Shown one piece after another: positions 27,741 to 45,407 of a stretch of DNA of 64,000 bases; position 1 is the first letter of the stretch, and every line of letters starts with the position of its first letter. The notes beneath the pieces were generated by a model. The model did no database searches and was not told where the DNA came from. It saw nothing but the letters and a program-made list of their open reading frames with translations. The translations under genes were made by a program, and so were the position numbers. The DNA is from Opitutia bacterium (GTDB taxonomy: Bacteria > Verrucomicrobiota > Verrucomicrobiia > Opitutales > Opitutaceae): the NCBI GenBank assembly GCA_947478395.1, contig CANJVR010000008.1, positions 1 to 64,000 on the forward strand, in the 5' to 3' direction.

Positions 27741-28040
27741 TTACGGTTTCTTGGCCTTGGCCGCATCAAGTTTCGCGAGGTATTTGGCGGGCTCTTTTTC
27801 GAAATCCTTCACGCAATCCTTGCAGCACAACTGAACCACGCGGTCCGGTTTGCCTGCTGCCTTGTAGATATATTCGAAGGGCTTGCCCATTTCGCCGAGC
27901 TTGTCGCCGGAGACGACGCAGGTTTCAGACTTCGCGGGAGCCGGATCGGTGGCGGTCGGCGCCGTGTGATCAGCCGCAAGGGCGGTAAGGGCCAAGAGGC
28001 CGGCGATAAGTGCGGGCGGAAGGACGTGACGGATTTTCAT
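27741..28040 (-). CDS. Small exported YHS/TRASH-like metal-binding protein
   Basis: Signal peptide; CVVSG..LGEMG.P and CCKDC...F...P.KY. Confidence 0.8.
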   Translation of the reverse strand: MKIRHVLPPALIAGLLALTALAADHTAPTATDPAPAKSETCVVSGDKLGEMGKPFEYIYKAAGKPDRVVQLCCKDCVKDFEKEPAKYLAKLDAAKAKKP

Positions 28041-28081
28041 GATTATGATGATTTGAAACAGAGAACTCGTTTACCCAAACC

Positions 28082-28148
28082 ACTACACCCGTCATCCGTG
28101 AAACCCTCAAAATTTTTTCAAGGGATTTTCCGCTGAGCGGGGTATAGT
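28082..28148. promoter_or_regulatory. Candidate back-to-back ECF sigma promoters
   Basis: Plus strand AGGG-N16-GGTATAGT and minus strand AGGG-N14-GGTGTAGT, each pointing at one divergent operon. Confidence 0.45.
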
Positions 28149-28163
28149 AGCGTGATCGATCCG

Positions 28164-28469
28164 ATGAAGACACCCGAAACCAAAGATTTCCTCTCTCGCG
28201 CCTTGGACGAATGGCGCATCACGCCGCGCCGCAGTCCCAACCTTCGGGCTGCAACGTGGGCCCGGATCGAAGCCACGCGAGCCGGCCGGACTTGGTTGGA
28301 GTACGCTGCGGCGCACCGAACCCTGGTCGCCAGCCTAGCCGTCGTCGCGCTTTTGGTCGGGGGCTGGATTGGCCGCGAGCGCGCTCAGCTCCGCCGGGAA
28401 GTCGATCGCGCGCAACTGGCGGAAAGCTACGTGCGGTCGCTCGATGCGCGTACGATGAATCTCCAATGA
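28164..28469 (+). CDS. Putative single-pass anti-sigma factor (CnrY-like position)
   Basis: About 100 aa, one TM segment, LSRALDEW...WARI N-terminus; ATGA overlap with the next gene. Confidence 0.6.
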   Translation: MKTPETKDFLSRALDEWRITPRRSPNLRAATWARIEATRAGRTWLEYAAAHRTLVASLAVVALLVGGWIGRERAQLRREVDRAQLAESYVRSLDARTMNLQ

Positions 28470-28894
28470 AGAATTTTCTAATCACGCTGTTGGTCGCCGT
28501 CGCGGCGGGGGTCGTCGCATTTGGCGTGGGTTACGCGGCGAATACTCAACCCGCACTCCACCGTGCCGCCCTCGAACGGGACGCGATGGCGTGGCTGCGC
28601 ACGGAGTTTCAGCTCAACGACGCCCAATACGCTTCAATCGGGAAACTGCACGACGACTACGGGTTGGTCTGCGGCGAACACTGCACGGCCATCATGGCGG
28701 CGAAAAAAAGAAACGCACCCGCCGCTGAAATCGGGGCGCTGGAAAAAATCTGCGTCAACGCGATGATGGAGCATTTCCAACGGGTGGCGGCGCTGATGCC
28801 GCCGGGACAGGGCGCGCGCTATCTCGCGATCGTGCGGCCGCGGGTGGATGACTACGATCATGCGGCCGCCCCAACCGTGCAGGTGAAACCTTGA
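28466..28894 (+). CDS. Periplasmic heavy-metal sensor (CnrX-like), Cys/His/Met-rich
   Basis: N-terminal TM; WLRTEFQLNDAQ, LHDDY..VCGEHC and ICVNAMMEHF..V...M.P.Q..RY. Confidence 0.7.
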   Translation: MKNFLITLLVAVAAGVVAFGVGYAANTQPALHRAALERDAMAWLRTEFQLNDAQYASIGKLHDDYGLVCGEHCTAIMAAKKRNAPAAEIGALEKICVNAMMEHFQRVAALMPPGQGARYLAIVRPRVDDYDHAAAPTVQVKP

Positions 28895-29493
28895 GTCTGC
28901 GTCGCCAAGGCACCGCTGGCCAGGGCCCGGAGGAATCCGGGTCGGCGGCGATGAATGATCGGGAATTGATGCGGGGCGTCCAGTCGGGCGACGAGACGGC
29001 GCTGGGTGTTTTGATGGAACGGTGGGAATTGCCGATTAAACGCTTCATCGCGCGGATCGTGTTCAACGCGAGCGAGGCCGAGGAGCTGGCCCAGGAAACC
29101 TTCGTGCGCGTGTGGACGCAGCGCGAAAAATTTCGCCCGGAGGCCGAGTTTCGTCCGTGGATTTTTTCGATCGCGGTCAACCTCGCGCGAAACCGTCTGC
29201 GCTGGTGGCGGAGCCGACCGAACGTTTCGCTGGAGGACTGGTTTGAATCCAGTAGCGGGATCGATCGGTCCGGTGGTTCGGTAACACTGGAGCGGGCGGA
29301 GCGGGCGGTGGCGGTGCGCGATGCAGTGGCGGCGCTGTCACACGAACTCCGCGAGGCGCTGGTGCTGTTTCATTACGAGGAATTGTCCCAGGCTGAAATC
29401 GCCGTGGCGCTTGGGTGCTCCGTGAAAACCGTGGAAACGCGCGTGGCTCGCGCACGGGAAAAGCTGCGCATCAGTCTTAGGGCGCTGGAGTGA
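28891..29493 (+). CDS. ECF RNA polymerase sigma factor
   Basis: AEELAQETF, WIFSIAVNLARN and region 4 EIAVALGCSVKTVETRVARAR; alternative start at 28951. Confidence 0.93.
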   Translation: MSLRRQGTAGQGPEESGSAAMNDRELMRGVQSGDETALGVLMERWELPIKRFIARIVFNASEAEELAQETFVRVWTQREKFRPEAEFRPWIFSIAVNLARNRLRWWRSRPNVSLEDWFESSSGIDRSGGSVTLERAERAVAVRDAVAALSHELREALVLFHYEELSQAEIAVALGCSVKTVETRVARAREKLRISLRALE

Positions 29494-29526
29494 GATTCTT
29501 CGCTTTGGTAGAGATCGCGGGGCCGA

Positions 29527-31803
29527 TTAAAATCGGCCGGTAACCTCGGCGATCAACGTGCGCTGCGGGAAAGGGTGAAAGAGGAAATATTTTCGGTTGA
29601 GAACATTGTCCACGCCGAGGCTGGCCTTCCAGTGTGACGTTATCTTGTAGTTAACGTGGAGGTCGGCGACGGCCCACGCGGCGAAACCTTGATGGGTGTT
29701 CGCGTTGACGTCGGTGTTATCGAGCGTCGTCCAAAGCTTGTCGCTGTAGCGGCCGGCGACGGTGAAGACCCAGCGATCGTTTGGGCGATACGTCGCCACA
29801 ACGCTCGCGCGCCAATCGGGGATGTTGGGCAGCTTTTTCCCGATCGCGTCGCCAGGCGCGGCGGTGCCGCTGGCGCGGCCGGAGAGGGCAAGCGTCCTTG
29901 CGTCGAGGTACGTGACGCTGCCAGAGATCTCGAGGCGGCGAATAAACACGTCGCGCTCTACGAGCACGAGTTCGATGCCGCGCGCGCGGACGTGGTCGAC
30001 ATTGGAGGCGAAGCTGAAGAGCTGCGTGGAGCCGGGGAGGAGCGGGTTGAACTGCGCGATGATCGCGTCGTGGACGTCGTCCTGGAAAAACGACACGCGG
30101 GCGGATCCGTTCTCGAAGCGGCGTTCGATCTTCAATTCGGCGGCGAGCACGTTGTCGGGTTTCAAGTGCGGGTTGGGCGAGGTGAACGTGGTGCCCGTGG
30201 AGACGAGTTGATAAAGCTCCGAGGCGGTGGCGAAACGGTAGGCTTTGCCGACCAAGGCGGAGACGATCCACGCGGGGGCGGGCGTCCACGCGAGCGTGGC
30301 TTTGGGCGAATATTTTTTCGCGCCGACGGACGGTTGGTTTACGACGACGGCGCCGTTGACGTTGTAGCCGTCGTAGCTGCGCCATTCCTCGTAGCGGACG
30401 CCGGCGGTGGCTTTTAACTCGCGCGTGATTTGCCAGATGTCCTGCACGAAGAGCGCTTGCGTGCGGGTCTTGCCGTCGCCCTCGGTCGCGGTGGTCGTGG
30501 CGGGAGCATCCGCGAGCCAGTCGGTGGTGTTGACCGTCGGGTTGTAGAGTTTGTAGCGGTCGTCGTGCGCGCCGAAGCTCACGGTGTGATCGGGATTTTT
30601 CGGGACGGAGCGCCAGGTGCCTTTGACGTCGAGCGTGGACCAGCCGGTGCCGCCGAGGATGGCGTAGCGGCCCGCGGTGCCGAAGCCCGTGCCGGTGGCG
30701 GTCGCGGTGGTCGGCGTGCGCTGCTTGTCTTTGTCGAAGCGATAGAGCGCGGCGGCGGTTTCGAAATCCCAATTGCTCTTCGTGTCGGTGCGGAGCGAGA
30801 GACTGTGCGAGGAATGCTCCTGCAACAACCGGTAGTAGCCGCTGGCGAAACCGGCTTGTCCGGCGAAGGTCGGATGGCCGGCGGCATCGCGCAGGTAGGT
30901 GTCGACGGAGGCGTCGGCGTTGTTTTTCCAGTAACCGAAACTATAGGCGGCGCGGAGGATCGGCGTGAGATCGTAGGCGATTTTGAATTTCGCGTTGGTC
31001 ATGCGCGTGTGGAGCAGTCCGCTGGCGCCGAGGATGTTGGCGGCGGCGCCGAGTTTGTTTTGCGCGGCGTAAGCGCCGGTGGTGCCGGCGGGAAACGTGC
31101 CGCTCGTGACGTAGCTGAGCGGCTGGCTGTGGCTGTCCTGATAGTTGGCGCTGACCCAAAACGCGAATTTGCCGGCGCGGTTGCCGGCGGTCACGGCGGT
31201 CTGGAGCGTGCGATAGGTGTTTTCGGTGCCGTACAGTTTGAAGCTCTGCCATGCGGCCGTCTCGGTGAGGGCGGCCTCGAGTTTTTCGGGGAGGCGCGTG
31301 GTGATTTCCATCACGGCGCCGATGGAGTTGCCGGCGTAAGCGGCGGAAAACGGGCCATACATTAGGTCGATCCGCTCGATCTCGGCGGGAGCGACCAGGC
31401 CCCAGCGTGGGCCGCCGATGTTGTTATTATTGGCGATGAGCGCCGTGAGCGGCACGCCGTCGGCGAAGATGAGGCTGCGCGCGCTGGAGCTCACGCCCCA
31501 CACGCGGGTGGCCATCACGGCTTGCGTGTCGCCGTAGTTGCGTTTGCGCAGAAAAACGCTCGGCAGGTATTTGACGGCGTCTTCGGTGTCGACGGCGTTG
31601 ATGGTTTCCTCGATGCGCTGGGCGGTGACGCTGGCGGTCACGGGGAGAGTGAGGGGAAGAATCGGTGATGCGGCGCCGCGTCCGGCGTTGACGTCGACGC
31701 GGTCGAGTTTGACGGGAGTTTCGGGCTCCGCGGTTTTGGTCGCTTGCGCGTGGAGGGCGCCGGTAAGGAGGAACGAAAGGGTCAGAACGGGAAATGGTTT
31801 CAT
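29527..31803 (-). CDS. TonB-dependent receptor
   Basis: Signal peptide, plug IERIDLMYGPFSAAY, GVDNVLNRKY and terminal Phe. Confidence 0.93.
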   Translation of the reverse strand: MKPFPVLTLSFLLTGALHAQATKTAEPETPVKLDRVDVNAGRGAASPILPLTLPVTASVTAQRIEETINAVDTEDAVKYLPSVFLRKRNYGDTQAVMATRVWGVSSSARSLIFADGVPLTALIANNNNIGGPRWGLVAPAEIERIDLMYGPFSAAYAGNSIGAVMEITTRLPEKLEAALTETAAWQSFKLYGTENTYRTLQTAVTAGNRAGKFAFWVSANYQDSHSQPLSYVTSGTFPAGTTGAYAAQNKLGAAANILGASGLLHTRMTNAKFKIAYDLTPILRAAYSFGYWKNNADASVDTYLRDAAGHPTFAGQAGFASGYYRLLQEHSSHSLSLRTDTKSNWDFETAAALYRFDKDKQRTPTTATATGTGFGTAGRYAILGGTGWSTLDVKGTWRSVPKNPDHTVSFGAHDDRYKLYNPTVNTTDWLADAPATTTATEGDGKTRTQALFVQDIWQITRELKATAGVRYEEWRSYDGYNVNGAVVVNQPSVGAKKYSPKATLAWTPAPAWIVSALVGKAYRFATASELYQLVSTGTTFTSPNPHLKPDNVLAAELKIERRFENGSARVSFFQDDVHDAIIAQFNPLLPGSTQLFSFASNVDHVRARGIELVLVERDVFIRRLEISGSVTYLDARTLALSGRASGTAAPGDAIGKKLPNIPDWRASVVATYRPNDRWVFTVAGRYSDKLWTTLDNTDVNANTHQGFAAWAVADLHVNYKITSHWKASLGVDNVLNRKYFLFHPFPQRTLIAEVTGRF

Positions 31804-32003
31804 GGCGGTACGGACTACGTTGAACGGTGTTAGGTGAACCGGTGCGTCGGCGCGGTGCGCGGATCGCAGCGGTCGGACGACACTTCCCGGCGCGGCGCGC
31901 CATCATGCTGCGCTAAAGCTACGGATGACCGGCCCCTTTTAAGAGGAGCGCGGGGAGTGCGGACAGGATGAGCTTGTCGGGTCGGCGACCCGTGAGGCTC
32001 GGT

Positions 32004-32399
32004 TTAGGCCTGCGCGCGCGGGGGCGGCAGGGATGGCGGCGGCCGGTCGGCGCTCGTGAGCGCGGGGACGGCAGCGGTCAGGCCCACGCACGAAGGGGCG
32101 GGCGAAGCGAAGACGAGCGGGGCCGGTGCGCTCGCAAGAAAAATCTTAGTCGGCGCTTTGTTGCCAGGGGCCTTCGCCCCGGCGGCGTCTTGTTGCTGCT
32201 TGGCCGTGGAAACTACCGCACAAATTTCGCAGCGGCCCTCGACGGAAAAAGTTTTGTTCACCGCGGCCTCGAAACTCATCGACTGTGAGTAGCTCGCAAA
32301 CATGCGGCCCCACGCGAACGTCTGCAGCAAATCCCATTGCCCGCCGGAAGCGAGCAGCCACGCGAAGAGCGTGAAGATGAGGGGAAGTTGGCGGCGCAT
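32004..32399 (-). CDS. DUF2946-like small protein with CxxC and Pro-rich C-terminus (putative regulatory upstream ORF)
   Basis: Hydrophobic N-terminus, CEIC, C-terminal RPPPSLPPPRA; directly upstream of the TonB receptor. Confidence 0.65.
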   Translation of the reverse strand: MRRQLPLIFTLFAWLLASGGQWDLLQTFAWGRMFASYSQSMSFEAAVNKTFSVEGRCEICAVVSTAKQQQDAAGAKAPGNKAPTKIFLASAPAPLVFASPAPSCVGLTAAVPALTSADRPPPSLPPPRAQA

Positions 32400-32657: not shown

Positions 32658-34100
32658 TCAGCGCACGGTCCGGAGTTGCACGCTGTCGACGACGCGATCC
32701 TGCGAGACGATATCGGTCGCGACGATCAGCTTGTCGCCGACTTGGATGGTCCCGGCGCGTTTCAATACCGTGATCGCATTTTCGATCGTCGCGTCGGGGT
32801 CGGACGAAAACGGCATCAGAAACGGCTCGACCGCGCGCAGCAGGCGCAGCTGACGAAAAACCTCTGGGGCCGGGGTAAATGCAAGGATCGGCGAGTGCAC
32901 GGGACGGAGCGCCGCGAGGCCGTTGGCCATGAATCCGTGCCGCGTGAACGTCAGCAGTTTCGAGTGCGGCAGCTGGTTGGCGAGAACGACGGCGGAATGC
33001 AACACCTGCATCCGGTCACCGGTGAAGACCGACGGCGAGCGCAGTTCCTCCGGCTTCTCCTGCTCGATGCGGCGGGCGATCTTGTCGAGCATCTGCACGG
33101 CTTCGTACGGATATTTTCCGATCGTGGTCTCGCCGGAAAGCATCACGCAGTCCGATTGTTCATACACCGCGTTGGCTACGTCCGTGATTTCGGCGCGGGT
33201 CGGCACGGGCTGCGTGATCATCGATTCGAGCATATGGGTGGCGATGATGACGGCTCGGCCCTGCGAGATACAGGCGTTGACGATGCGGCGCTGGATTACC
33301 GGCAGTTCTTCAAAGGGGCATTCGATCCCGAGATCGCCGCGCGCGACCATGACGGCATCGGACACGCGCACGATTTCGTCCAAGTTGGCGATACCCGATT
33401 GGTCCTCGATTTTTGAGATGATGCGGACCTTTGATTTTTTATCGGCGAGAAACGCGCGCAGCAACTCGACGTCAGCTGCCTCCCGCACGAACGACAGCGC
33501 GATATAATCCAATCCTTCTTCCAGCCCTACCTCCGTGTCGCCCCGGTCTTTTTCCGTGAACGCAGGCAGATTCACCTTCACTCCCGGCAGGTTGATGTGG
33601 CGGCGGGACGAAAGAGCGCCGGGGACGAGCACGCGGCAGCGGATGCGCACGTCGTCCTTGCTGAGCACCTCGAGCCGGATCAACCCGCTGTCGACCAGCA
33701 CGGTGTCGCCGACCTTGATGTCGTTGACAAGGTCGCGGTAATTCACGTCGACCGAGCGGATTTCCTCGGCGTTCTCGCCGTCACCCGAGCCGGGTTTGAC
33801 GGTAAAATCGAAAATCTCACCGGGCTTTAATTCGATCGGCGCCTCAACATCGCCGGTGCGAATTTCCGGTCCTTTGATATCCATCATGATGGCGACATCG
33901 CGGCCGACCCGTGCGCTGACCGCCCGGATGCGGCGGATGACCTTGCGCGTCCATTCGTGCTTGGCGTGCGCCATGTTGAGGCGAATGACATCGGCGCCGC
34001 TGCGAATTAGCTTCTCGAGCATTTCTTCGCTTTCCGTGGCCGGACCGAGGGTGAAGATAATTTTGGTACGGCGGAAGACGTTGATCGGCGGTATTGTCAT
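32658..34100 (-). CDS. pyk: Pyruvate kinase
   Basis: RRTKIIFTLGPA, DIKGPEIRTG, MVARGDLG and VMLSGET. Confidence 0.97.
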   Translation of the reverse strand: MTIPPINVFRRTKIIFTLGPATESEEMLEKLIRSGADVIRLNMAHAKHEWTRKVIRRIRAVSARVGRDVAIMMDIKGPEIRTGDVEAPIELKPGEIFDFTVKPGSGDGENAEEIRSVDVNYRDLVNDIKVGDTVLVDSGLIRLEVLSKDDVRIRCRVLVPGALSSRRHINLPGVKVNLPAFTEKDRGDTEVGLEEGLDYIALSFVREAADVELLRAFLADKKSKVRIISKIEDQSGIANLDEIVRVSDAVMVARGDLGIECPFEELPVIQRRIVNACISQGRAVIIATHMLESMITQPVPTRAEITDVANAVYEQSDCVMLSGETTIGKYPYEAVQMLDKIARRIEQEKPEELRSPSVFTGDRMQVLHSAVVLANQLPHSKLLTFTRHGFMANGLAALRPVHSPILAFTPAPEVFRQLRLLRAVEPFLMPFSSDPDATIENAITVLKRAGTIQVGDKLIVATDIVSQDRVVDSVQLRTVR

Positions 34101-34212: not shown

Positions 34213-35016
34213 TCACACGAGATCGTAAAATGGCGTGCCTTCGCCCGCGCCGACAACCGCGAATTCGCAGGCGCACAGGGCGGCGCGGACCTCGCTCAGC
34301 GCTGTTTCCACCGCGGCGCGCGAATTGCAGTCGCGCGAGAGATGCGTGAGGTAGATGCGGCGCCACCGTGGGCTCGCGACGCTCGCGAGCAGTTCGCGGG
34401 TGCCCTCATTCGAAAGATGGCCGTGGCGACCGCTGATGCGCTGCTTGGTCGACCAAGGGCGGCGGGTGTCGGCCTGGAGCAGCTGCGGACAGTGGTTGGC
34501 CTCGACCACGACGACGTCGCATTCCCGGATATGTTCGCGCACGTGTTGAGGAGCGTGGCCCAAGTCGGTCAGCCAGGCGAGGCTCCGGCGCGGGGCAAAA
34601 AGATCGCCTTCATGGCCGCTCGTGAATCGAAAGCCCACCGGATCGTGCGCGTCGTGCGGCACGGCGAAACTCTCCACCTCGAGATCGCGAAAACAAAACC
34701 GCGCGCCGGTCTCGAACACCTGCCAGTCGGGCTGGTACGATAGCCCGGCCTGGATCGCGCGGCGGGTGGCGCCGTTGGCAAACACGCGGATGTGTGGAAA
34801 TTTTTTCAACCCGTCGATCGCCGCTGCGTGATCGCCATGCTCGTGCGTGAGGAAAATCGCATCGATGCGCGCGAGCGATTCCCCCGCGAGCGTGAGGAGC
34901 TGGTCGAGCTTCCGCGCTGAAAATCCCGCATCGACCAGAACGCGCGCGCCCTCGGTGACGAGCAGGGCACTGTTGCCTGAGCTGCCGCTGCCGAGGATGG
35001 AAAAACGCATCGCCAT
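34213..35016 (-). CDS. MBL-fold metallo-hydrolase (YycJ/WalJ-like)
   Basis: LGSGSSGN, THEHGDH, VPHDA.DP, GHLSN and HLS..CN. Confidence 0.9.
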   Translation of the reverse strand: MAMRFSILGSGSSGNSALLVTEGARVLVDAGFSARKLDQLLTLAGESLARIDAIFLTHEHGDHAAAIDGLKKFPHIRVFANGATRRAIQAGLSYQPDWQVFETGARFCFRDLEVESFAVPHDAHDPVGFRFTSGHEGDLFAPRRSLAWLTDLGHAPQHVREHIRECDVVVVEANHCPQLLQADTRRPWSTKQRISGRHGHLSNEGTRELLASVASPRWRRIYLTHLSRDCNSRAAVETALSEVRAALCACEFAVVGAGEGTPFYDLV

Positions 35017-35211: not shown

Positions 35212-35706
35212 ATGCCAAAAGCAGCCACTGTTTCCAAGTCAGCGAAGCGTTCCGCGCGCCCCAAGGTGCCGCGCGTGCTGCCGGGCGTGGTGTCGATCAC
35301 GCGCCAGGTCCATTTCAACTCCGCGCACCGCCTGCACAATTGGTCGAAAAGCCAGCAGTGGAATACCGACCACTACGGCCTCTGTACCAACCCCCACTGG
35401 CACGGTCATAATTACGTTCTGGAAGTCACCTTGCGCGGCCGGCCCGATCCCGAGACGGGTTACATCATGGATCTCGGCGCGCTTAAAAAAATCCTGCACC
35501 GGGCGGTCGTGGACAAGTGCGATCATCACAATCTGAACGATGAGGTGGATTTTCTTCGCGGAATCATTCCGTCAACGGAAAACTTGGTGATCGCGTTCTG
35601 GAACGAGATCGAGCCGCACATCAAGGCGGGCCGGCTGCACTGCGTGCGGCTGTACGAAACGCCGCGCAACTTCGCGGAATACCACGGCCCCGACGCGAAG
35701 GATTGA
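35212..35706 (+). CDS. 6-pyruvoyl-tetrahydropterin synthase family protein, C-X5-HGH (PTPS-II) type
   Basis: FNSAHRL, CTNPHWHGHNY, DHHNLN, STEN and LYET. Confidence 0.9.
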   Translation: MPKAATVSKSAKRSARPKVPRVLPGVVSITRQVHFNSAHRLHNWSKSQQWNTDHYGLCTNPHWHGHNYVLEVTLRGRPDPETGYIMDLGALKKILHRAVVDKCDHHNLNDEVDFLRGIIPSTENLVIAFWNEIEPHIKAGRLHCVRLYETPRNFAEYHGPDAKD

Positions 35707-35794
35707 GCGCGAAAATCCCGGCCTCTTTTAAATTTTCCTCGGTTGTTATCGTAACCCAACCGCGGCCACCAGCAAACCTTCCAAAAACGAAATC

Positions 35795-36766
35795 ATGAAA
35801 CAGATGTATCTCCACCGCTCAAGCAGCGGGCAGGCGCCGCTGATCAAGCGGGCGTATGACAAAAAATTTCGGGCCAGCCCGGCCTACCGCGCGGCGCTGC
35901 CGGATATGATGGAGGTGGCGCATGAAGCCATCCAGGGCGCGCAAGTGCCGATCCAGCAGGTTGGCATCCACAATTTCAAACTGCCGCTGAAGTACCGGAC
36001 GAAAGCCGGCAAAACGATGGTGCTGGAAACAAGCGTGACCGGCACGGTTTCCCTCGAGGCGGACTTAAAGGGCATCAACATGAGCCGGATCATGCGCTCA
36101 TTCTACGAGCACAAGGATGGCATCACGACCGGCGAGTGGATGGGGAAAATTCTCAAAAGCTATCTGCGCAACGTGGACAGCAAGGACGCGCGCCTGAAGA
36201 TCGTCTTTTCCTATCCGATGATTCGCGAGAGCCTGCGCAGCGGGCTCAAAGGCTATCAGTTCTATAACGTCGCCTTCGAAGGGGTCATGACCCGCGACGG
36301 AGTTTACCGGCGGTTTATCCATTTCGACTTCGTTTACTCGTCGGCGTGCCCCTGCTCAGCGGAACTCTCTGAACACGCGCGCGACCAGCGGGGCGCCTAC
36401 ACCGTGCCGCATTCCCAGCGCAGCAAGGCGCGCATCACGTTGGAGGAAGTTGCCGGAAAAAAAATCTGGATCGAGGACGTGCATGCATTGTGCCTGCGTG
36501 CGCTTCAGACCGAAACGCAGGTCATGGTGAAACGCGAAGACGAGCAGGCGTTCGCTGAACTCAACGGCGCGTACTTGAAGTTTGTGGAGGATGCGGCGCG
36601 GCTTTTGTACAAGGAGTTCGACGGCGAAAAACGGATCAAAGATTTCCGCATTGCGTGTTCCCATTTGGAGTCGTTGCACTCGCACGATGCCGTGAGCGTG
36701 ATCTGCAAAGGCGTGAAGGGCGGCTTCACCGCCGACTTCATGGATTTCGGGTTGTTGGTGTGCTGA
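35795..36766 (+). CDS. folE2: GTP cyclohydrolase IB
   Basis: KGINMSR, SACPCS, HSQRS, VKREDE, FVEDAAR and ESLHSHDA. Confidence 0.95.
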
Positions 36767-36993
36767 AAGGGCGTCCGCGAGGCAGGTCTGTCCTTCTGAG
36801 ATTTGGAACGGGCGCGCAGCCTTCGCTGGCGCGCCTCATGACTGCTTTTTTTGGGGCGCACCCCGTCCACCGCGATCAGCGGCCGGTCCGCGGGGATATC
36901 GGCAGCGCATGGCGGGTGCGCCGCAAAAGCAACGGACTGTGCCGCTGGCAGATTTTGCGTGCCTTCCCTCCGCTGCGCTGCCGCGATTGTGCG

Positions 36994-37701
36994 ATGAAAC
37001 CAGTCGTCCTTATTACCGGTGCTTCGCAAGGAATCGGCGCCGCCATCGCGCATGTCTTTGCCCGTGAAATTCGCGGAGTGAGCCTGGTCCTTGTGGCCCG
37101 GAACGCCAAGAATCTTGCGACGGTCGCGCGGCGCTGCTCGAAGCTCGGTGCGACCGCGGAGCTTTTCCCGTGTGACGTCAGCGATGAGAGTTCGGTCGCC
37201 GGGCTGGCGAGCGCGGTCGAAAAGCGTTTCGGCACGATCGACGTGCTGATCAACAACGCCGGCAAATTCGAAGGTGCACCATTAGGGGAAATGAGTGTCA
37301 CGCAGTTTGATCGTATGATCGCGGCAAATTTGCGCAGTGTGTTTCTCATGTCGCGGGCGTTTGTCCCGGCCATGGCGAAACGCGGCCGGGGCGATGTGTT
37401 CAATATGAGTTCGATCGCGGGGCTTGATGCTTATCCGGGAGGCGCCGGCTATTGTGCCGCGAAGTTTGGCGTTACGGGCCTGAGCAAAGTGATGCGCGCC
37501 GAATTGAAGACGAAGGGCGTGCGCGTGTGCTGTGTTTATCCGGGTGCAACATGGTCGCCCTCGTGGGAGGGCGCGGGCGTGCCCGCCACACGCATGATGC
37601 CCGCGGCGGACGTGGCGCGGGCGTTTCTCGATGTGTATCGTCTTGGTCGCAGTGCCGTGGTCGAGGAGATCATCCTCCGGCCTCAACTCGGCGACTTGTG
37701 A
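36994..37701 (+). CDS. SDR oxidoreductase, sepiapterin-reductase-like (Chlorobium type)
   Basis: TGASQGIG, NNAG, YCAAK and C-terminal VVEEIILRPQLGDL; start trimmed to the ATG at 36994. Confidence 0.8.
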   Translation: MKPVVLITGASQGIGAAIAHVFAREIRGVSLVLVARNAKNLATVARRCSKLGATAELFPCDVSDESSVAGLASAVEKRFGTIDVLINNAGKFEGAPLGEMSVTQFDRMIAANLRSVFLMSRAFVPAMAKRGRGDVFNMSSIAGLDAYPGGAGYCAAKFGVTGLSKVMRAELKTKGVRVCCVYPGATWSPSWEGAGVPATRMMPAADVARAFLDVYRLGRSAVVEEIILRPQLGDL

Positions 37702-42186: not shown

Positions 42187-43233
42187 CTATTTTTTCAAAC
42201 GCGCCGCGAGAATTTCCGTGATCCACCGCCGGTGGGGGCCGGACAGCGTGATTTCGTCGAGCGTGGTGAGCGGAATCCAGACGAGTTCTGGCGAAATTTT
42301 CCCGCGAGGCGATACGCCGGCATGGATCGTTTCGGTGATTTGAAAGCGAGTGATAGAGCGTTTTCTCTTGGCGATTAAAACGCCTTGCGTGGCGGTGGCC
42401 TCGGAAACGCCGACCTGTTCGGGCGTGGGCAATTCATGTTGATGAGCGAGGCGCTTGGAATCGGCCGCCGCGCGATGGAGCAACAACGCGCCGTCTCGCT
42501 CGCACCACACGCGCGTCACCCTGCGCTGCTCGATCAGCTTGGGAGCGAGCCGCGGGTACGCCGTGGGATTCCCGTGGCGCGCGCCGGCGCAGAATGTTCG
42601 CACCGGGCACGTGAGGCACAGCGGCTTTTGGCGAAAACACACGGTGGCGCCGAGCTCCATCATCGCCTGGTTGTGATCGCCGGGTGACTGCGATGAGAGC
42701 AACGCCTCAGCGAGAGAGGTAAATGCCTTCGCCGCCGACGCGCTGTCGCGGTATTCGCTGCCGTCGGCGGTGATGCGGGCGAGGATCCTGACCACGTTGC
42801 CGTCCACGCAGGCGGCTGGCGCTGCGAACGCTATGCTGGTGATCGCCGCCGCGGTGTAGGGTCCTACGCCAGGCAGTTCGCGCCACTCCGCGGGCGTGCG
42901 GGGCGGCGTGGGCAAGGCGGCGACCGCGCGCGCGAGCTGGTGCAGATTGCGGGCGCGCGAATAGTAGCCGAGCCCTTCCCAGAGTTTGAGCACCCGAGTT
43001 TCGGAAGCGGCGGCGAGGGCCGCGAAGTCGGGTAACGTGGCGAGCCAGCGGGCGAAATAGGGCAGGACGGTTTTCACCTGCGTTTGCTGCAGCATTAACT
43101 CGCTCACCACGGTTTTATAGAGCGAAGGATTTTCCCGCCACGGCAGAACCCTCGCGTGGCGACGATACCACGTGAGCAGGGCCGACTGAAAATCGAGCTT
43201 GGCGGCGATGAGCTGGACGGAGGAGTTGGCCAC
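42187..43233 (-). CDS. mutY: A/G-specific adenine glycosylase
   Basis: SELMLQQTQV, WEGLGYYSRARNL, LPGVGPYTA, VDGNV and Fe-S motif C-X6-C-X2-C-X5-C; start uncertain. Confidence 0.95.
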   Translation of the reverse strand: MANSSVQLIAAKLDFQSALLTWYRRHARVLPWRENPSLYKTVVSELMLQQTQVKTVLPYFARWLATLPDFAALAAASETRVLKLWEGLGYYSRARNLHQLARAVAALPTPPRTPAEWRELPGVGPYTAAAITSIAFAAPAACVDGNVVRILARITADGSEYRDSASAAKAFTSLAEALLSSQSPGDHNQAMMELGATVCFRQKPLCLTCPVRTFCAGARHGNPTAYPRLAPKLIEQRRVTRVWCERDGALLLHRAAADSKRLAHQHELPTPEQVGVSEATATQGVLIAKRKRSITRFQITETIHAGVSPRGKISPELVWIPLTTLDEITLSGPHRRWITEILAARLKK

Positions 43234-43314
43234 GAAAAGCACGAGAAGACACAAAAAAGCAGAGGCGGAAAGCAGGGTTTTCTTTTTCGTGCGTTTTGGC
43301 GCTTTTTGTGGCCA
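43227..43314. repeat. Imperfect inverted repeat filling the mutY-rnhC divergent intergenic region
   Basis: TGGCCACGAAAAGCACG... and ...CGCTTTTTGTGGCCA arms with repeated CACGAAAA-like units. Confidence 0.7.
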
Positions 43315-43322
43315 GTACCTTT

Positions 43323-44330
43323 ATGGCGAAGAAGACCGCGGATGACGCGGAAAAACCCAAGAAGCTCAGCACCTACACCATCAAGCTTGATGATGTGCAG
43401 ATGGAGAAGCTGCGCGCGATCTGCGTGGCGCGGCAGTTCGAGCCATTCGACGTACCGTATGCGCGCTTCGCGTTTCGCGGGCTCGACGTCAACGTGACCG
43501 CCTACGACAAACGCAAGGTGGTCGTGATCGCGGGCAAGGGGACCGAGAATTTCGTGACGATGACGCTCGAGCCGGAAGTCACGATGGCGGCCACGCTCGG
43601 CTACGACGAAGTGTTGCACCCGGATTGGTTCGAGTCGCACGCCGGACTCGACGAAAGCGGTAAGGGCGATTTTTTTGGCCCAGTGGTCGCGGCCACGGTG
43701 ATTGCCGACAAAGGCATGATCGAGGCGTGGCGCGAGGCGGGCGTGCAGGATTCGAAACGCATCGCGGCTCCCCAAATCATGCGGCTCGATGCGCTCATTC
43801 GCGGGACGAAAGGCGCCGTCGTCGAGGTGTGTTATTGTCGCACGATGGCGCGGTACAACGAGCTGATGGGTCGACCGCGAGCCAACCTCAACCGTCTGCT
43901 GGCATGGCAGCACGCGACCGCGCTGTCCGATGCGCTCGCGAAAAAGCCGGTGCCGTGGGGGCTGCTCGACCAATTCACCGAACAGCCGCTCGTGCAACGC
44001 GAACTCACCAAGAAAGGCGTGGAGAACTTTGAGCTGCGCATGCGGACCAAGGCGGAATCCGATCCGGTGGTCGCGGCGGCTTCGATCGTGGCGCGGGCGG
44101 AATTTGTCCGGGCGATGCACAGTCTCTCCAAGGAATTTGGCGCGACGCTGCAATTCGGGGCGAGCGCGCTCGTGAAAGTGCAGGCGAATGAAATCATCCA
44201 GAAATTTGGGGCGCGGGCGCTGGGCGATTTTGCCAAACTGCATTTTCGCACCGCGTACGAAGTCGTGGCGGCGGCCGGAAAACTCGATGAGCTGCCGCTG
44301 AAGCCACCACCGCCAAAGATGGAGTGGTAG
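43323..44330 (+). CDS. rnhC: Ribonuclease HIII
   Basis: N-terminal extension plus GLDESGKGDFFGP, GVQDSK, DQF and VAAASIVAR. Confidence 0.93.
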   Translation: MAKKTADDAEKPKKLSTYTIKLDDVQMEKLRAICVARQFEPFDVPYARFAFRGLDVNVTAYDKRKVVVIAGKGTENFVTMTLEPEVTMAATLGYDEVLHPDWFESHAGLDESGKGDFFGPVVAATVIADKGMIEAWREAGVQDSKRIAAPQIMRLDALIRGTKGAVVEVCYCRTMARYNELMGRPRANLNRLLAWQHATALSDALAKKPVPWGLLDQFTEQPLVQRELTKKGVENFELRMRTKAESDPVVAAASIVARAEFVRAMHSLSKEFGATLQFGASALVKVQANEIIQKFGARALGDFAKLHFRTAYEVVAAAGKLDELPLKPPPPKMEW

Positions 44331-44654
44331 CGTCACGGGCGCGGAGACGGAACTGATCAAATCCGGAGGGTTGGAGGCTAAGATTCGCGGCATTTTTAGG
44401 CCTCTTCGTCGTCAACGCTCTGCAATCACCGGAGGCGCATCTTTACCTATTTTCGGTTTCGGTCAGCTGGCGGATGTGGCGCGTGAAATCCTCGTCTTCG
44501 CCTGCGAGCAATTCAGGCCGTGCGGAGCGAACGTCGAAACGGCGTACCGTTTCGCGCATGATCCGGCCAAGCGAATGGGGTGTCCGGCCAAAGCCCAGCG
44601 CGGGAGAGCGTGGACCGCGCTTGCGCGGCGGGAGCAGTTTTCTTCACATGCGCC

Positions 44655-45407
44655 ATGAAACGCCGTCAATTGCGCGGCTTTGACCTCAAACAAATCGAAA
44701 ATGTTGCCAGCCTGATCGGCGTCGATGAGGCCGGCCGCGGTGCCTTGGCCGGACCGGTGGTGGCGGGCGCGGTGCTTGTGACGCGGGAGTTTCTGGAAAG
44801 CCGCTGGGCCGATGTGAATGCGCGCCGGATCAATGACTCCAAACAGCTGACTGCGGCGGAGAGGGACTCGTTGTGGCTCGATTTCGAGGCGCTCGCGGCC
44901 GAGGGAAAAATCCACGCGCACTTCGGCTCGGCGGATGTCGCCGAGATCGCGCAGCTCAATATTCTCGGCGCGACAAAACTGGCGATGCGGCGCGCGCTCG
45001 AAGGCATTTATCCGCCGAGCGCATTCGAGCGAAAGGTAGAGCCCGATCTTTTTTCGGCGTTGGAGGAGGTGGCGAATTTTCAGCCGACCGTCTCGGCGAG
45101 GGTTTTGATCGATGGGCTGCCATTGAGAAATTTTCCGTATCCTCATATCGGGCTCGTGCAGGGGGATGCGCGTTCCCTCTGCATCGCGATGGCTTCGATT
45201 ATCGCCAAGGTCACGCGGGACCGGCTGATGAGCGAACTGGACGCGCAATTCGCCGGTTACGGTTTTGCGACCCACAAAGGCTACGGCACGGAAGAGCATC
45301 GCGAGGCGGTGCTCCGCCTCGGGCGTACGCCGCAGCATCGGGAGATGTTTTTGCGCAAGCTCCTGGCGGGGCGCCCCGATCCGGCGCAAATCGATTTTTT
45401 AGCCTAG
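44655..45407 (+). CDS. rnhB: Ribonuclease HII
   Basis: GVDEAGRGALAGPVV, DSK, ASIIAKVTRD and HKGYGT. Confidence 0.95.
   Translation: MKRRQLRGFDLKQIENVASLIGVDEAGRGALAGPVVAGAVLVTREFLESRWADVNARRINDSKQLTAAERDSLWLDFEALAAEGKIHAHFGSADVAEIAQLNILGATKLAMRRALEGIYPPSAFERKVEPDLFSALEEVANFQPTVSARVLIDGLPLRNFPYPHIGLVQGDARSLCIAMASIIAKVTRDRLMSELDAQFAGYGFATHKGYGTEEHREAVLRLGRTPQHREMFLRKLLAGRPDPAQIDFLA

What the first reader, a model, noticed from the sequence alone, without database searches (positions are those of the whole stretch)
35212..37701. Candidate complete tetrahydrobiopterin pathway: PTPS-II, FolE2 and a sepiapterin-reductase-like SDR
Seen: three co-oriented genes. The PTPS has C-X5-HGH (CTNPHWHGH). 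Known: this is the signature of BH4-type PTPS-II, as opposed to QueD (C-X3-HGH) or the folate-bypass PTPS-III (E-X2-HGH). The SDR (LITGA..GIG, YC..KFG, V.PGA...P.W, VVEEIILRP..GD) closely resembles the Chlorobium tepidum sepiapterin reductase as I recall it. GTP cyclohydrolase I, PTPS and SR are the three steps of de novo BH4 synthesis. Inference: a biopterin pathway fed by the Zn-independent type IB cyclohydrolase, in a lineage where I know of no such description; automatic annotation would probably label it queD plus a generic SDR. Caveat: a 227-bp gap precedes the SDR.
Basis: partly seen in the sequence, partly recalled or inferred. Interest (0 to 1): 0.75.

Follow-up and report, generated by a model that had tools for sequence, protein, structure and literature searches.

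The report
Bacterial biopterin operon, possibly dual-purpose
Three neighbouring genes in an Opitutaceae bacterium most likely make a biopterin-type cofactor by a known route, and because many of these genomes keep the queuosine tRNA-modification pathway but lack its usual QueD enzyme, the biopterin synthase may also do that second job.

Summary
The three genes and all motifs are as described. The PTPS is closest to animal PTPS, the SDR to Chlorobium sepiapterin reductase, and FolE2 passes its cut-off. In 120 Opitutaceae genomes the SDR occurs only with this PTPS (83 of 83; 76 linked within 4 kb), not with FolE2, the family's general GTP cyclohydrolase (119 of 120). All 15 phenylalanine hydroxylases and 71 of 77 pterin-recycling dehydratases fall in SDR genomes; this genome encodes an NO synthase. 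A biopterin-type pathway is therefore likely (about 0.75, no assay). It is not wholly undescribed: a 2016 supplement already lists the Opitutus terrae orthologue as PTPS. The new point: this genome has queC, queE, queF and tgt but no other QueD-family gene. 45 of 110 queC-positive relatives are alike, none lacks both genes, and three carry a QueD-type motif in this enzyme. It may be a dual PTPS-II/QueD (about 0.5). Stereochemistry and the main pterin consumer are open.

The parts
35212..35706 (+). PTPS-II-type 6-pyruvoyltetrahydropterin synthase (C58-X5-H64-G-H66; H39, D104-H105, E123, E149); the only COG0720 gene found in the genome; candidate dual PTPS-II/QueD
   Evidence: PF01242; best PDB hits human and rat PTPS, E 2e-29 and 3e-29, versus QueD 1e-8; model TM 0.92 to human PTPS versus 0.78 to QueD; single hit in own genome
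35795..36766 (+). FolE2, GTP cyclohydrolase type IB; the only GTP cyclohydrolase I found in the genome, shared by folate, queuosine and biopterin synthesis
   Evidence: NF010200 277.8 bits, cut-off 215; PDB FolE2 hits; no FolE IA in own genome; single tblastn hit
36767..36993 (.). 227-bp intergenic gap; no consensus promoter or terminator inside it; holds an inserted small ORF in several relatives
36994..37701 (+). SDR of the Chlorobium sepiapterin reductase type (S140-Y153-K157, R36, W191, C-terminal GD)
   Evidence: best PDB hit 2bd0 E 7.9e-39; profile 1e-56 versus next 1.3e-47; Foldseek rank 1, TM 0.95, rmsd 1.5; conservation

Best explanation
This is the de novo tetrahydrobiopterin-type pathway of most Opitutaceae, built around the housekeeping folE2. 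FolE2 turns GTP into 7,8-dihydroneopterin triphosphate (family assignment shown). The zinc PTPS eliminates triphosphate to give 6-pyruvoyl-tetrahydropterin, and the NADPH-dependent SDR reduces the side-chain carbonyls to a tetrahydrobiopterin isomer, perhaps L-threo as in Chlorobium (inferred from homology, residues and gene linkage; about 0.75). The product is recycled by PCD and can serve phenylalanine hydroxylase or NO synthase where present (inferred). Part of the dihydroneopterin triphosphate goes to folate through FolB-FolK. In genomes such as this one, with queC, queE, queF and tgt but no QueD, the same PTPS probably also releases some 6-carboxy-tetrahydropterin for QueE (inferred from gene distribution only; about 0.5).
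For: Homology and fold. The SDR tracks the PTPS: 83 of 83 SDR genomes carry this PTPS type, 83 of 89 PTPS genomes carry the SDR, 76 of 83 on the same strand within 4 kb. In 16 of 16 fetched folE2 loci from genomes without this PTPS there is no PTPS and no SDR orthologue, and 5 keep the upstream MBL-fold neighbour. Pterin users: PF00351 in 15 of 120 genomes, all SDR genomes; PCD in 71 of 83 SDR genomes versus 4 of 31 without the PTPS; NO synthase in own genome and 13 of 120, 10 of them SDR genomes. Four genomes keep PTPS and SDR with no queC or queE found. The curated PTPS label for the O. terrae orthologue. Dual role: 45 of 110 queC-positive genomes have only this COG0720 gene, 43 of the 45 have queE, none has a hit to the family's own QueD profile, and 0 of 110 lack both kinds (10.2 expected if independent). 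The state is scattered: 25 genera, 11 mixed genera, at least 20 changes on the PTPS tree. The three C-X3-HGH variants among 91 orthologues all lie in such genomes.
Against: No biochemical test. SDR identity to 2bd0 is only 35% and other SDRs score close. Chlorobium Phe99 aligns with G94, not Phe; a near-invariant F92 lies two residues earlier. 58 of 83 SDR genomes have neither phenylalanine hydroxylase nor NO synthase. Bacterial NOS usually uses tetrahydrofolate, and 3 of 13 NOS genomes lack the SDR. Kin are not independent, so the Fisher p of 2e-7 overstates. For the dual role: the enzyme folds like animal PTPS rather than QueD; it has Gly where E. coli QueD has His25 (role of that residue recalled, paper not held); no column separates QueD-less from QueD-bearing genomes (best raw p 3e-4 over 134 positions, S/T121); the three C-X3 variants are one clade, so one event; 29 genomes keep both this PTPS and the family QueD.
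Confidence: 0.7

Rival explanations
1. Biopterin operon as proposed, but the PTPS is single-function. QueD-less genomes get 6-carboxy-tetrahydropterin from an unrecognised enzyme or from outside, or their queC/queE are no longer used.
For: PTPS-II-like fold and motif; no distinguishing residue in QueD-less genomes; most genomes are draft assemblies; QueE scores below NCBIfam equivalog cut-offs.
Against: queE is intact and well conserved in 43 of 45 such genomes; single-contig genomes G051, G070 and G106 show the pattern; no queC-positive genome lacks every COG0720 gene and all 6 genomes without COG0720 lack queC; no conserved candidate gene beside queC-queE in 7 loci.
Confidence: 0.33
2. The PTPS is only a QueD with an unusual C-X5 motif, clustered with its upstream enzyme folE2; the SDR is a generic neighbour.
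For: Only COG0720 gene in a genome with the queuosine pathway; QueD tolerates a C-X4 spacing (PMC9894224); C-X3 variants exist in the same synteny.
Against: 29 genomes keep a separate family QueD as well; four keep PTPS and SDR with no queC or queE found; the SDR appears and disappears with the PTPS and its best solved match is a sepiapterin reductase; phenylalanine hydroxylase and PCD track it.
Confidence: 0.08
3. The pathway is real but the end product is not canonical biopterin: another stereoisomer, a singly reduced pterin, or a glycosylated pterin used as antioxidant or photoprotectant rather than as an oxygenase cofactor.
For: Chlorobium makes L-threo-BH4 and glycosylates it (PMC5683033); Phe99 is not in register; 58 of 83 SDR genomes lack the two users searched.
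Against: PCD in 71 of 83 SDR genomes points to oxygenase-type turnover; no glycosyltransferase was recognised among recurring neighbours (genome-wide search not done). This reading partly overlaps the best explanation.
Confidence: 0.15
4. The PTPS is a folate-bypass enzyme (PTPS-III).
For: It lies next to the only GTP cyclohydrolase I.
Against: No E-X2-HGH motif; folB and folK are present and adjacent.
Confidence: 0.02

Closest known systems
Chlorobium tepidum sepiapterin reductase (PDB 2bd0; L-threo-BH4 pathway)
   Same: Best sequence, profile and structure match; Ser-Tyr-Lys triad, Trp196 equivalent (W191), C-terminal EEIILRPxxGD
   Different: 35% identity; Phe99 aligns with G94, with a conserved F92 nearby; no linked pteridine glycosyltransferase recognised
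PTPS-II subfamily of COG0720 (animal PTPS; bacterial PTPS-II curated in SEED, including Opitutus terrae)
   Same: C-X5-HGH, three zinc His, Asp-His pair, two Glu; co-occurrence with a sepiapterin-reductase-like SDR
   Different: Linked to FolE2, whereas the PTPS-II neighbourhood reported in PMC5445326 has FolE; often the sole COG0720 gene beside queC/queE; C-X3 variants inside the clade
QueD (PTPS-I), QueD2 and the dual PTPS-I/III enzymes
   Same: Same fold and substrate; precedent for dual-function members and shifted cysteine spacing
   Different: Below the TIGR03367 cut-off (67.9 versus 89.25); C-X5 motif and long pre-cysteine helix; a dual PTPS-I/II was not found in the papers searched
FolE2 (GTP cyclohydrolase IB)
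   Same: Above the NF010200 cut-off; CPCS, HxQR and ESLH motifs conserved
   Different: Nothing unusual; housekeeping copy in this family

Membership tests
PTPS-II | C-X5-HGH motif | tested here: met
   CTNPHWHGH; 88 of 91 orthologues C-X5, 3 C-X3; motif definition read in PMC5041015
PTPS-II | Closest to animal PTPS in sequence and fold, catalytic residues kept | tested here: met
   H39, C58, H64, H66, D104, H105, E123, E149 invariant in 131 aligned loci, which include duplicates of one genome
PTPS-II | Co-occurrence with sepiapterin reductase | tested here: met
   83 of 89 genomes, assuming the SDR assignment
PTPS-II | Makes 6-pyruvoyl-tetrahydropterin | not testable with these tools
   needs an assay
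QueD (PTPS-I) | C-X3-HGH (or C-X4 in QueD2) and TIGR03367 cut-off | tested here: not met
   C-X5; 67.9 bits versus 89.25; the C-X3 variant tested also falls below. Not filed as QueD.
QueD (PTPS-I) | Clustering with queC/queE/queF | tested here: not met
   queC-queE on C3, queF on C1, this gene on C8
QueD (works like) | Only candidate for the QueD step in genomes with queC and queE | tested here: met
   own genome and 43 of 45 relatives
QueD (works like) | Makes CPH4 or complements a queD deletion | not testable with these tools
   needs an assay
PTPS-III | E-X2-HGH and absence of folB | tested here: not met
Chlorobium-type sepiapterin reductase | Best match among solved SDRs; Ser-Tyr-Lys triad; Trp196 | tested here: met
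Chlorobium-type sepiapterin reductase | Phe99 | tested here: inconclusive
   aligned position is G94 (variable); F92 is F or Y in all 103 rows covering it; no residue-level structural overlay was available
Chlorobium-type sepiapterin reductase | Groups with the Chlorobium enzyme in a tree | not tested
Chlorobium-type sepiapterin reductase | NADPH-dependent reduction of sepiapterin; L-threo product | not testable with these tools
   needs an assay
FolE2 | NF010200 above cut-off | tested here: met
   277.8 versus 215

The most novel reading that the evidence does not exclude
The Opitutaceae C-X5-HGH enzyme is a natural dual PTPS-II/QueD: one active site that releases 6-pyruvoyl-tetrahydropterin for biopterin and, by the further retro-aldol step, 6-carboxy-tetrahydropterin for queuosine. 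This let the family QueD be lost many times, and one lineage shortened the motif to C-X3-HGH while keeping the reductase. Wide retention of SDR and PCD without phenylalanine hydroxylase or NO synthase further hints at an unrecognised pterin-dependent oxygenase.
Probability: 0.45. Interest if true: 0.68.

Novelty: new variant of a known kind. Interest (0 to 1): 0.5.

Why it matters
The pathway itself is known chemistry and the PTPS was already labelled in one member of the family. What would matter: (1) the C-X5 versus C-X3 motif is the standard rule for telling PTPS-II from QueD; a dual enzyme would break it and change queuosine predictions for genomes that seem to lack QueD. (2) The C-X5 and C-X3 orthologues are a natural pair for finding what makes this fold stop at the pyruvoyl product or go on to the carboxylate. 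(3) It places a biopterin-type cofactor, an NO synthase and possibly an unknown pterin user in an abundant freshwater and soil family. All of this can be tested in E. coli.

Tried and rejected
A missed QueD in the own genome: profiles of the three other PTPS types found in relatives, run with hmmsearch --max over 47,145 six-frame segments, hit only the window gene; the family QueD profile found nothing in the own genome or in any of the 45 single-PTPS genomes. Phenylalanine hydroxylase and FA_hydroxylase (AGMO-type): none in the own genome; FA_hydroxylase was not searched in relatives. Neighbours of PCD (20 loci), PAH (6) and queC (7) gave no candidate pterin user or QueD substitute. Promoter and terminator scan: nothing above shuffles, none in the 227-bp gap. 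RNA runs: five with small shares, four laid; contigs in two runs bridge the PTPS-folE2 junction, none covers the folE2-SDR gap or the SDR beyond short matches that run on unlike the stretch; contigs cannot show transcription, so this is not used as evidence. Asp87, at the position of QueD Asp54, is not diagnostic: C. elegans PTPS and curated bacterial PTPS-II also have it. The SDR homologue search returned only close relatives with generic names; the representative search gave unnamed dual-domain and single-domain relatives. The careful tree did not finish; the quick tree was used. Earlier findings of this scan: nothing by place, words or sequence. Phillips 2012, Miles 2014 and McCarty 2009 are not held.

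Full report
Observation. The window carries three co-oriented genes at 35212-35706, 35795-36766 and 36994-37701, separated by 88 and 227 bp. All quoted motifs are in the translations. Record titles of the closest relatives are nearly all Opitutaceae or Verrucomicrobiota. The genome is 98.8% complete in 9 contigs.

What each gene is. The first is a PF01242 protein below the QueD cut-off. Its best solved relatives are human, rat and C. elegans PTPS (E 2e-29 to 4e-25), far ahead of QueD (1e-8); a confident model (pLDDT 95) matches human PTPS at TM 0.92 and QueD at 0.78. The second is FolE2. The third is an SDR whose best match by single sequence, by a 40-sequence profile and by fold is Chlorobium tepidum sepiapterin reductase 2bd0 (E 7.9e-39; 1e-56 versus 1.3e-47 next; TM 0.95, rmsd 1.5). 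The triad S140-Y153-K157, R36, W191 and the C-terminal GD are invariant in the 40 aligned orthologues. A review passage names Trp196 and Phe99 as the substrate-binding residues of the Chlorobium enzyme (PMC7520308, passages). Trp196 is matched. Phe99 aligns with a variable G94, with a conserved aromatic at 92. The margin over other SDRs is real but modest, and identity is 35%.

Linkage and distribution. I searched one fixed sample of 120 same-family genomes reported as at least 90% complete (one is slightly over 5% contaminated; counts exclude the own genome). The PTPS orthologue (type A) is in 89, the SDR orthologue in 83, all 83 in type A genomes, 76 of them on the same strand within 4 kb. 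FolE2 is in 119 and FolE IA in 5, so FolE2 is the housekeeping enzyme. In 16 folE2 loci fetched from the 31 genomes without type A there is no PTPS and no SDR orthologue (one unrelated SDR at 29%), and 5 keep the upstream MBL-fold gene. PTPS and SDR thus come and go together around folE2. In a phylum sample, close orthologues were in 14 of 15 Opitutaceae; among the other 185 genomes 5 had only distant matches at 35-38%.

Who could use the pterin. Phenylalanine hydroxylase-family genes are in 15 of 120 genomes, all SDR-positive, but not in the own genome. PCD is in 77 of 120: 71 of 83 SDR genomes, 73 of 89 type A genomes and 4 of 31 others. The own genome has a stand-alone NO synthase oxygenase (G000:C3:485386-486390, E 1.7e-129) aligning well with mammalian and Bacillus NOS; it occurs in 13 of 120, including all 3 same-genus genomes, 10 with the SDR and 3 without. 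A review states that most bacterial NOS bind tetrahydrofolate (PMC9500659, passages), so NOS is a possible, not a required, user. 58 of 83 SDR genomes have neither enzyme; their user is unexplained.

The queuosine gap. The own genome has queC-queE adjacent, queF and tgt and folB-folK, but only one COG0720 gene. Relatives show three other types, all C-X3-HGH: a stand-alone family QueD (type B), one inside queC-queD-queE operons, and a short canonical one (20 loci inspected). Of 110 queC-positive genomes, 45 have type A only, 40 have type A plus another PF01242 match (29 type B; of the other 11, three were seen to be the short type and eight were not inspected), 25 have another type only, and none has neither; the 6 genomes with no PF01242 match all lack queC. 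Eight low-scoring matches were counted but not listed by place. 43 of the 45 have a queE match and none matches the type B profile. Three of them are single contigs (G051, G070, G106). The state occurs in 25 genera, 11 of them mixed, and needs at least 20 changes on a quick tree of 87 scored PTPS proteins (shuffled labels 23-35, so there is kinship signal but many separate events). Three of 91 type A proteins have C-X3-HGH; they form one clade, all in QueD-less genomes, all with the SDR, two with phenylalanine hydroxylase. QueE needs 6-carboxy-tetrahydropterin (established pathway; PMC9894224, passages), and QueD passes through a sepiapterin-like intermediate before losing acetaldehyde, so a PTPS that sometimes completes the second step is chemically modest. 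Against: the fold is PTPS-like, no residue marks the QueD-less group, Gly stands where I recall E. coli QueD using His25 (recalled; paper not held), and four genomes keep PTPS and SDR with no queC or queE found, which shows the biopterin role stands without queuosine but says nothing for the dual role.

Mechanism, with status. GTP to dihydroneopterin triphosphate by FolE2: family membership shown. To 6-pyruvoyl-tetrahydropterin by the PTPS: inferred, strong. Reduction by the SDR to a tetrahydrobiopterin isomer: inferred, about 0.75; L-threo plausible but unproven. Side flow to 6-carboxy-tetrahydropterin for QueE: inferred from distribution, about 0.5.

What is known. PMC5041015 (section 5 read whole, other passages, supplement passages and part 1 of 37) defines the motifs, says about 50 bacterial members are predicted to make BH4 from co-occurrence with sepiapterin reductase, describes dual PTPS-I/III enzymes, and lists an Opitutus terrae protein as 6-pyruvoyl tetrahydrobiopterin synthase; by eye it is an orthologue of the window's protein. 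PMC5445326 (passages) gives FolE and a nudix family as PTPS-II neighbours and FolE2 for PTPS-IV. PMC9894224 (passages; supplement searched with no hit) counts PTPS-II at 21% of the family. PMC5683033 (part 1 of 2) covers L-threo-BH4 and its glycoside in Chlorobium. I found no account of a dual PTPS-I/II or of biopterin synthesis in Opitutaceae in searches (listings only; the two papers were not opened). The library lacks most subscription papers, including Phillips 2012, which may hold the relevant complementation test.

Verdict. A real, conserved operon for a known pathway, already half annotated in this family. It is a new variant through its FolE2 linkage and the probable QueD-covering role. 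Interest 0.5; 0.68 if the dual function is shown.

Noticed in passing
G000:C3:485386-486390 (L258:1486-2631, -): Stand-alone NO synthase oxygenase, in 13 of 120 family genomes; the nearest upstream ORF on the same strand (L258:2918-3358) ends in two short Cys/His repeats that resemble CDGSH iron-sulfur motifs (resemblance recalled, not scanned), a possible redox partner. In G102 and G025 the open frame is much longer (973 and 884 aa), perhaps with fused domains.
   Followed up: partly
G000:C8:90013-91056 (L185:535-2808, -) and G000:C1:673134-674210: Two full-length tgt genes; the one on C8 is fused to an MnmC-like methyltransferase domain.
   Followed up: partly
L060, L062, L063, L069, L071, L079, L094, L125, L131, L145, between folE2 and the SDR: A roughly 124-aa ORF with a GPGLDEKLY motif (GxxExxY-like family, label recalled) is inserted in the gap in several relatives; L070 has a cytosine methylase and a GIY-YIG nuclease there instead.
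   Followed up: partly
L069 (G106), L072 (G077), L178 (G036): Orthologues of the window's PTPS with the motif shortened to C-X3-HGH, one clade, all in genomes without another QueD.
   Followed up: yes
G000:C1:71519-71788 (L157) and L238-L257: PCD sits beside the undecaprenyl diphosphate synthase-like gene in 20 of 20 loci, not near any hydroxylase.
   Followed up: partly
G021 and G068 (L235): These two same-genus genomes keep queC but no queE was found with the query used.
   Followed up: no
window 34213-35016 (-) and 32658-34100 (-): A divergent MBL-fold gene and a pyruvate kinase-like gene (named from its sequence, not scanned) precede the operon in 44 and 36 of 80 related loci and also precede folE2 in some genomes lacking the PTPS.
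   Followed up: partly
window 27741-32399: Small cluster of an ECF-type sigma-like ORF (28891-29493), a putative anti-sigma pair and a TonB-dependent receptor-like ORF (29527-31803), read by eye only.
   Followed up: no
window 43296-44330 (+) and 44580-45407 (+): Two adjacent RNase H-like ORFs (HIII-like and HII-like by eye), next to a MutY-like gene at 42187-43254.
   Followed up: no
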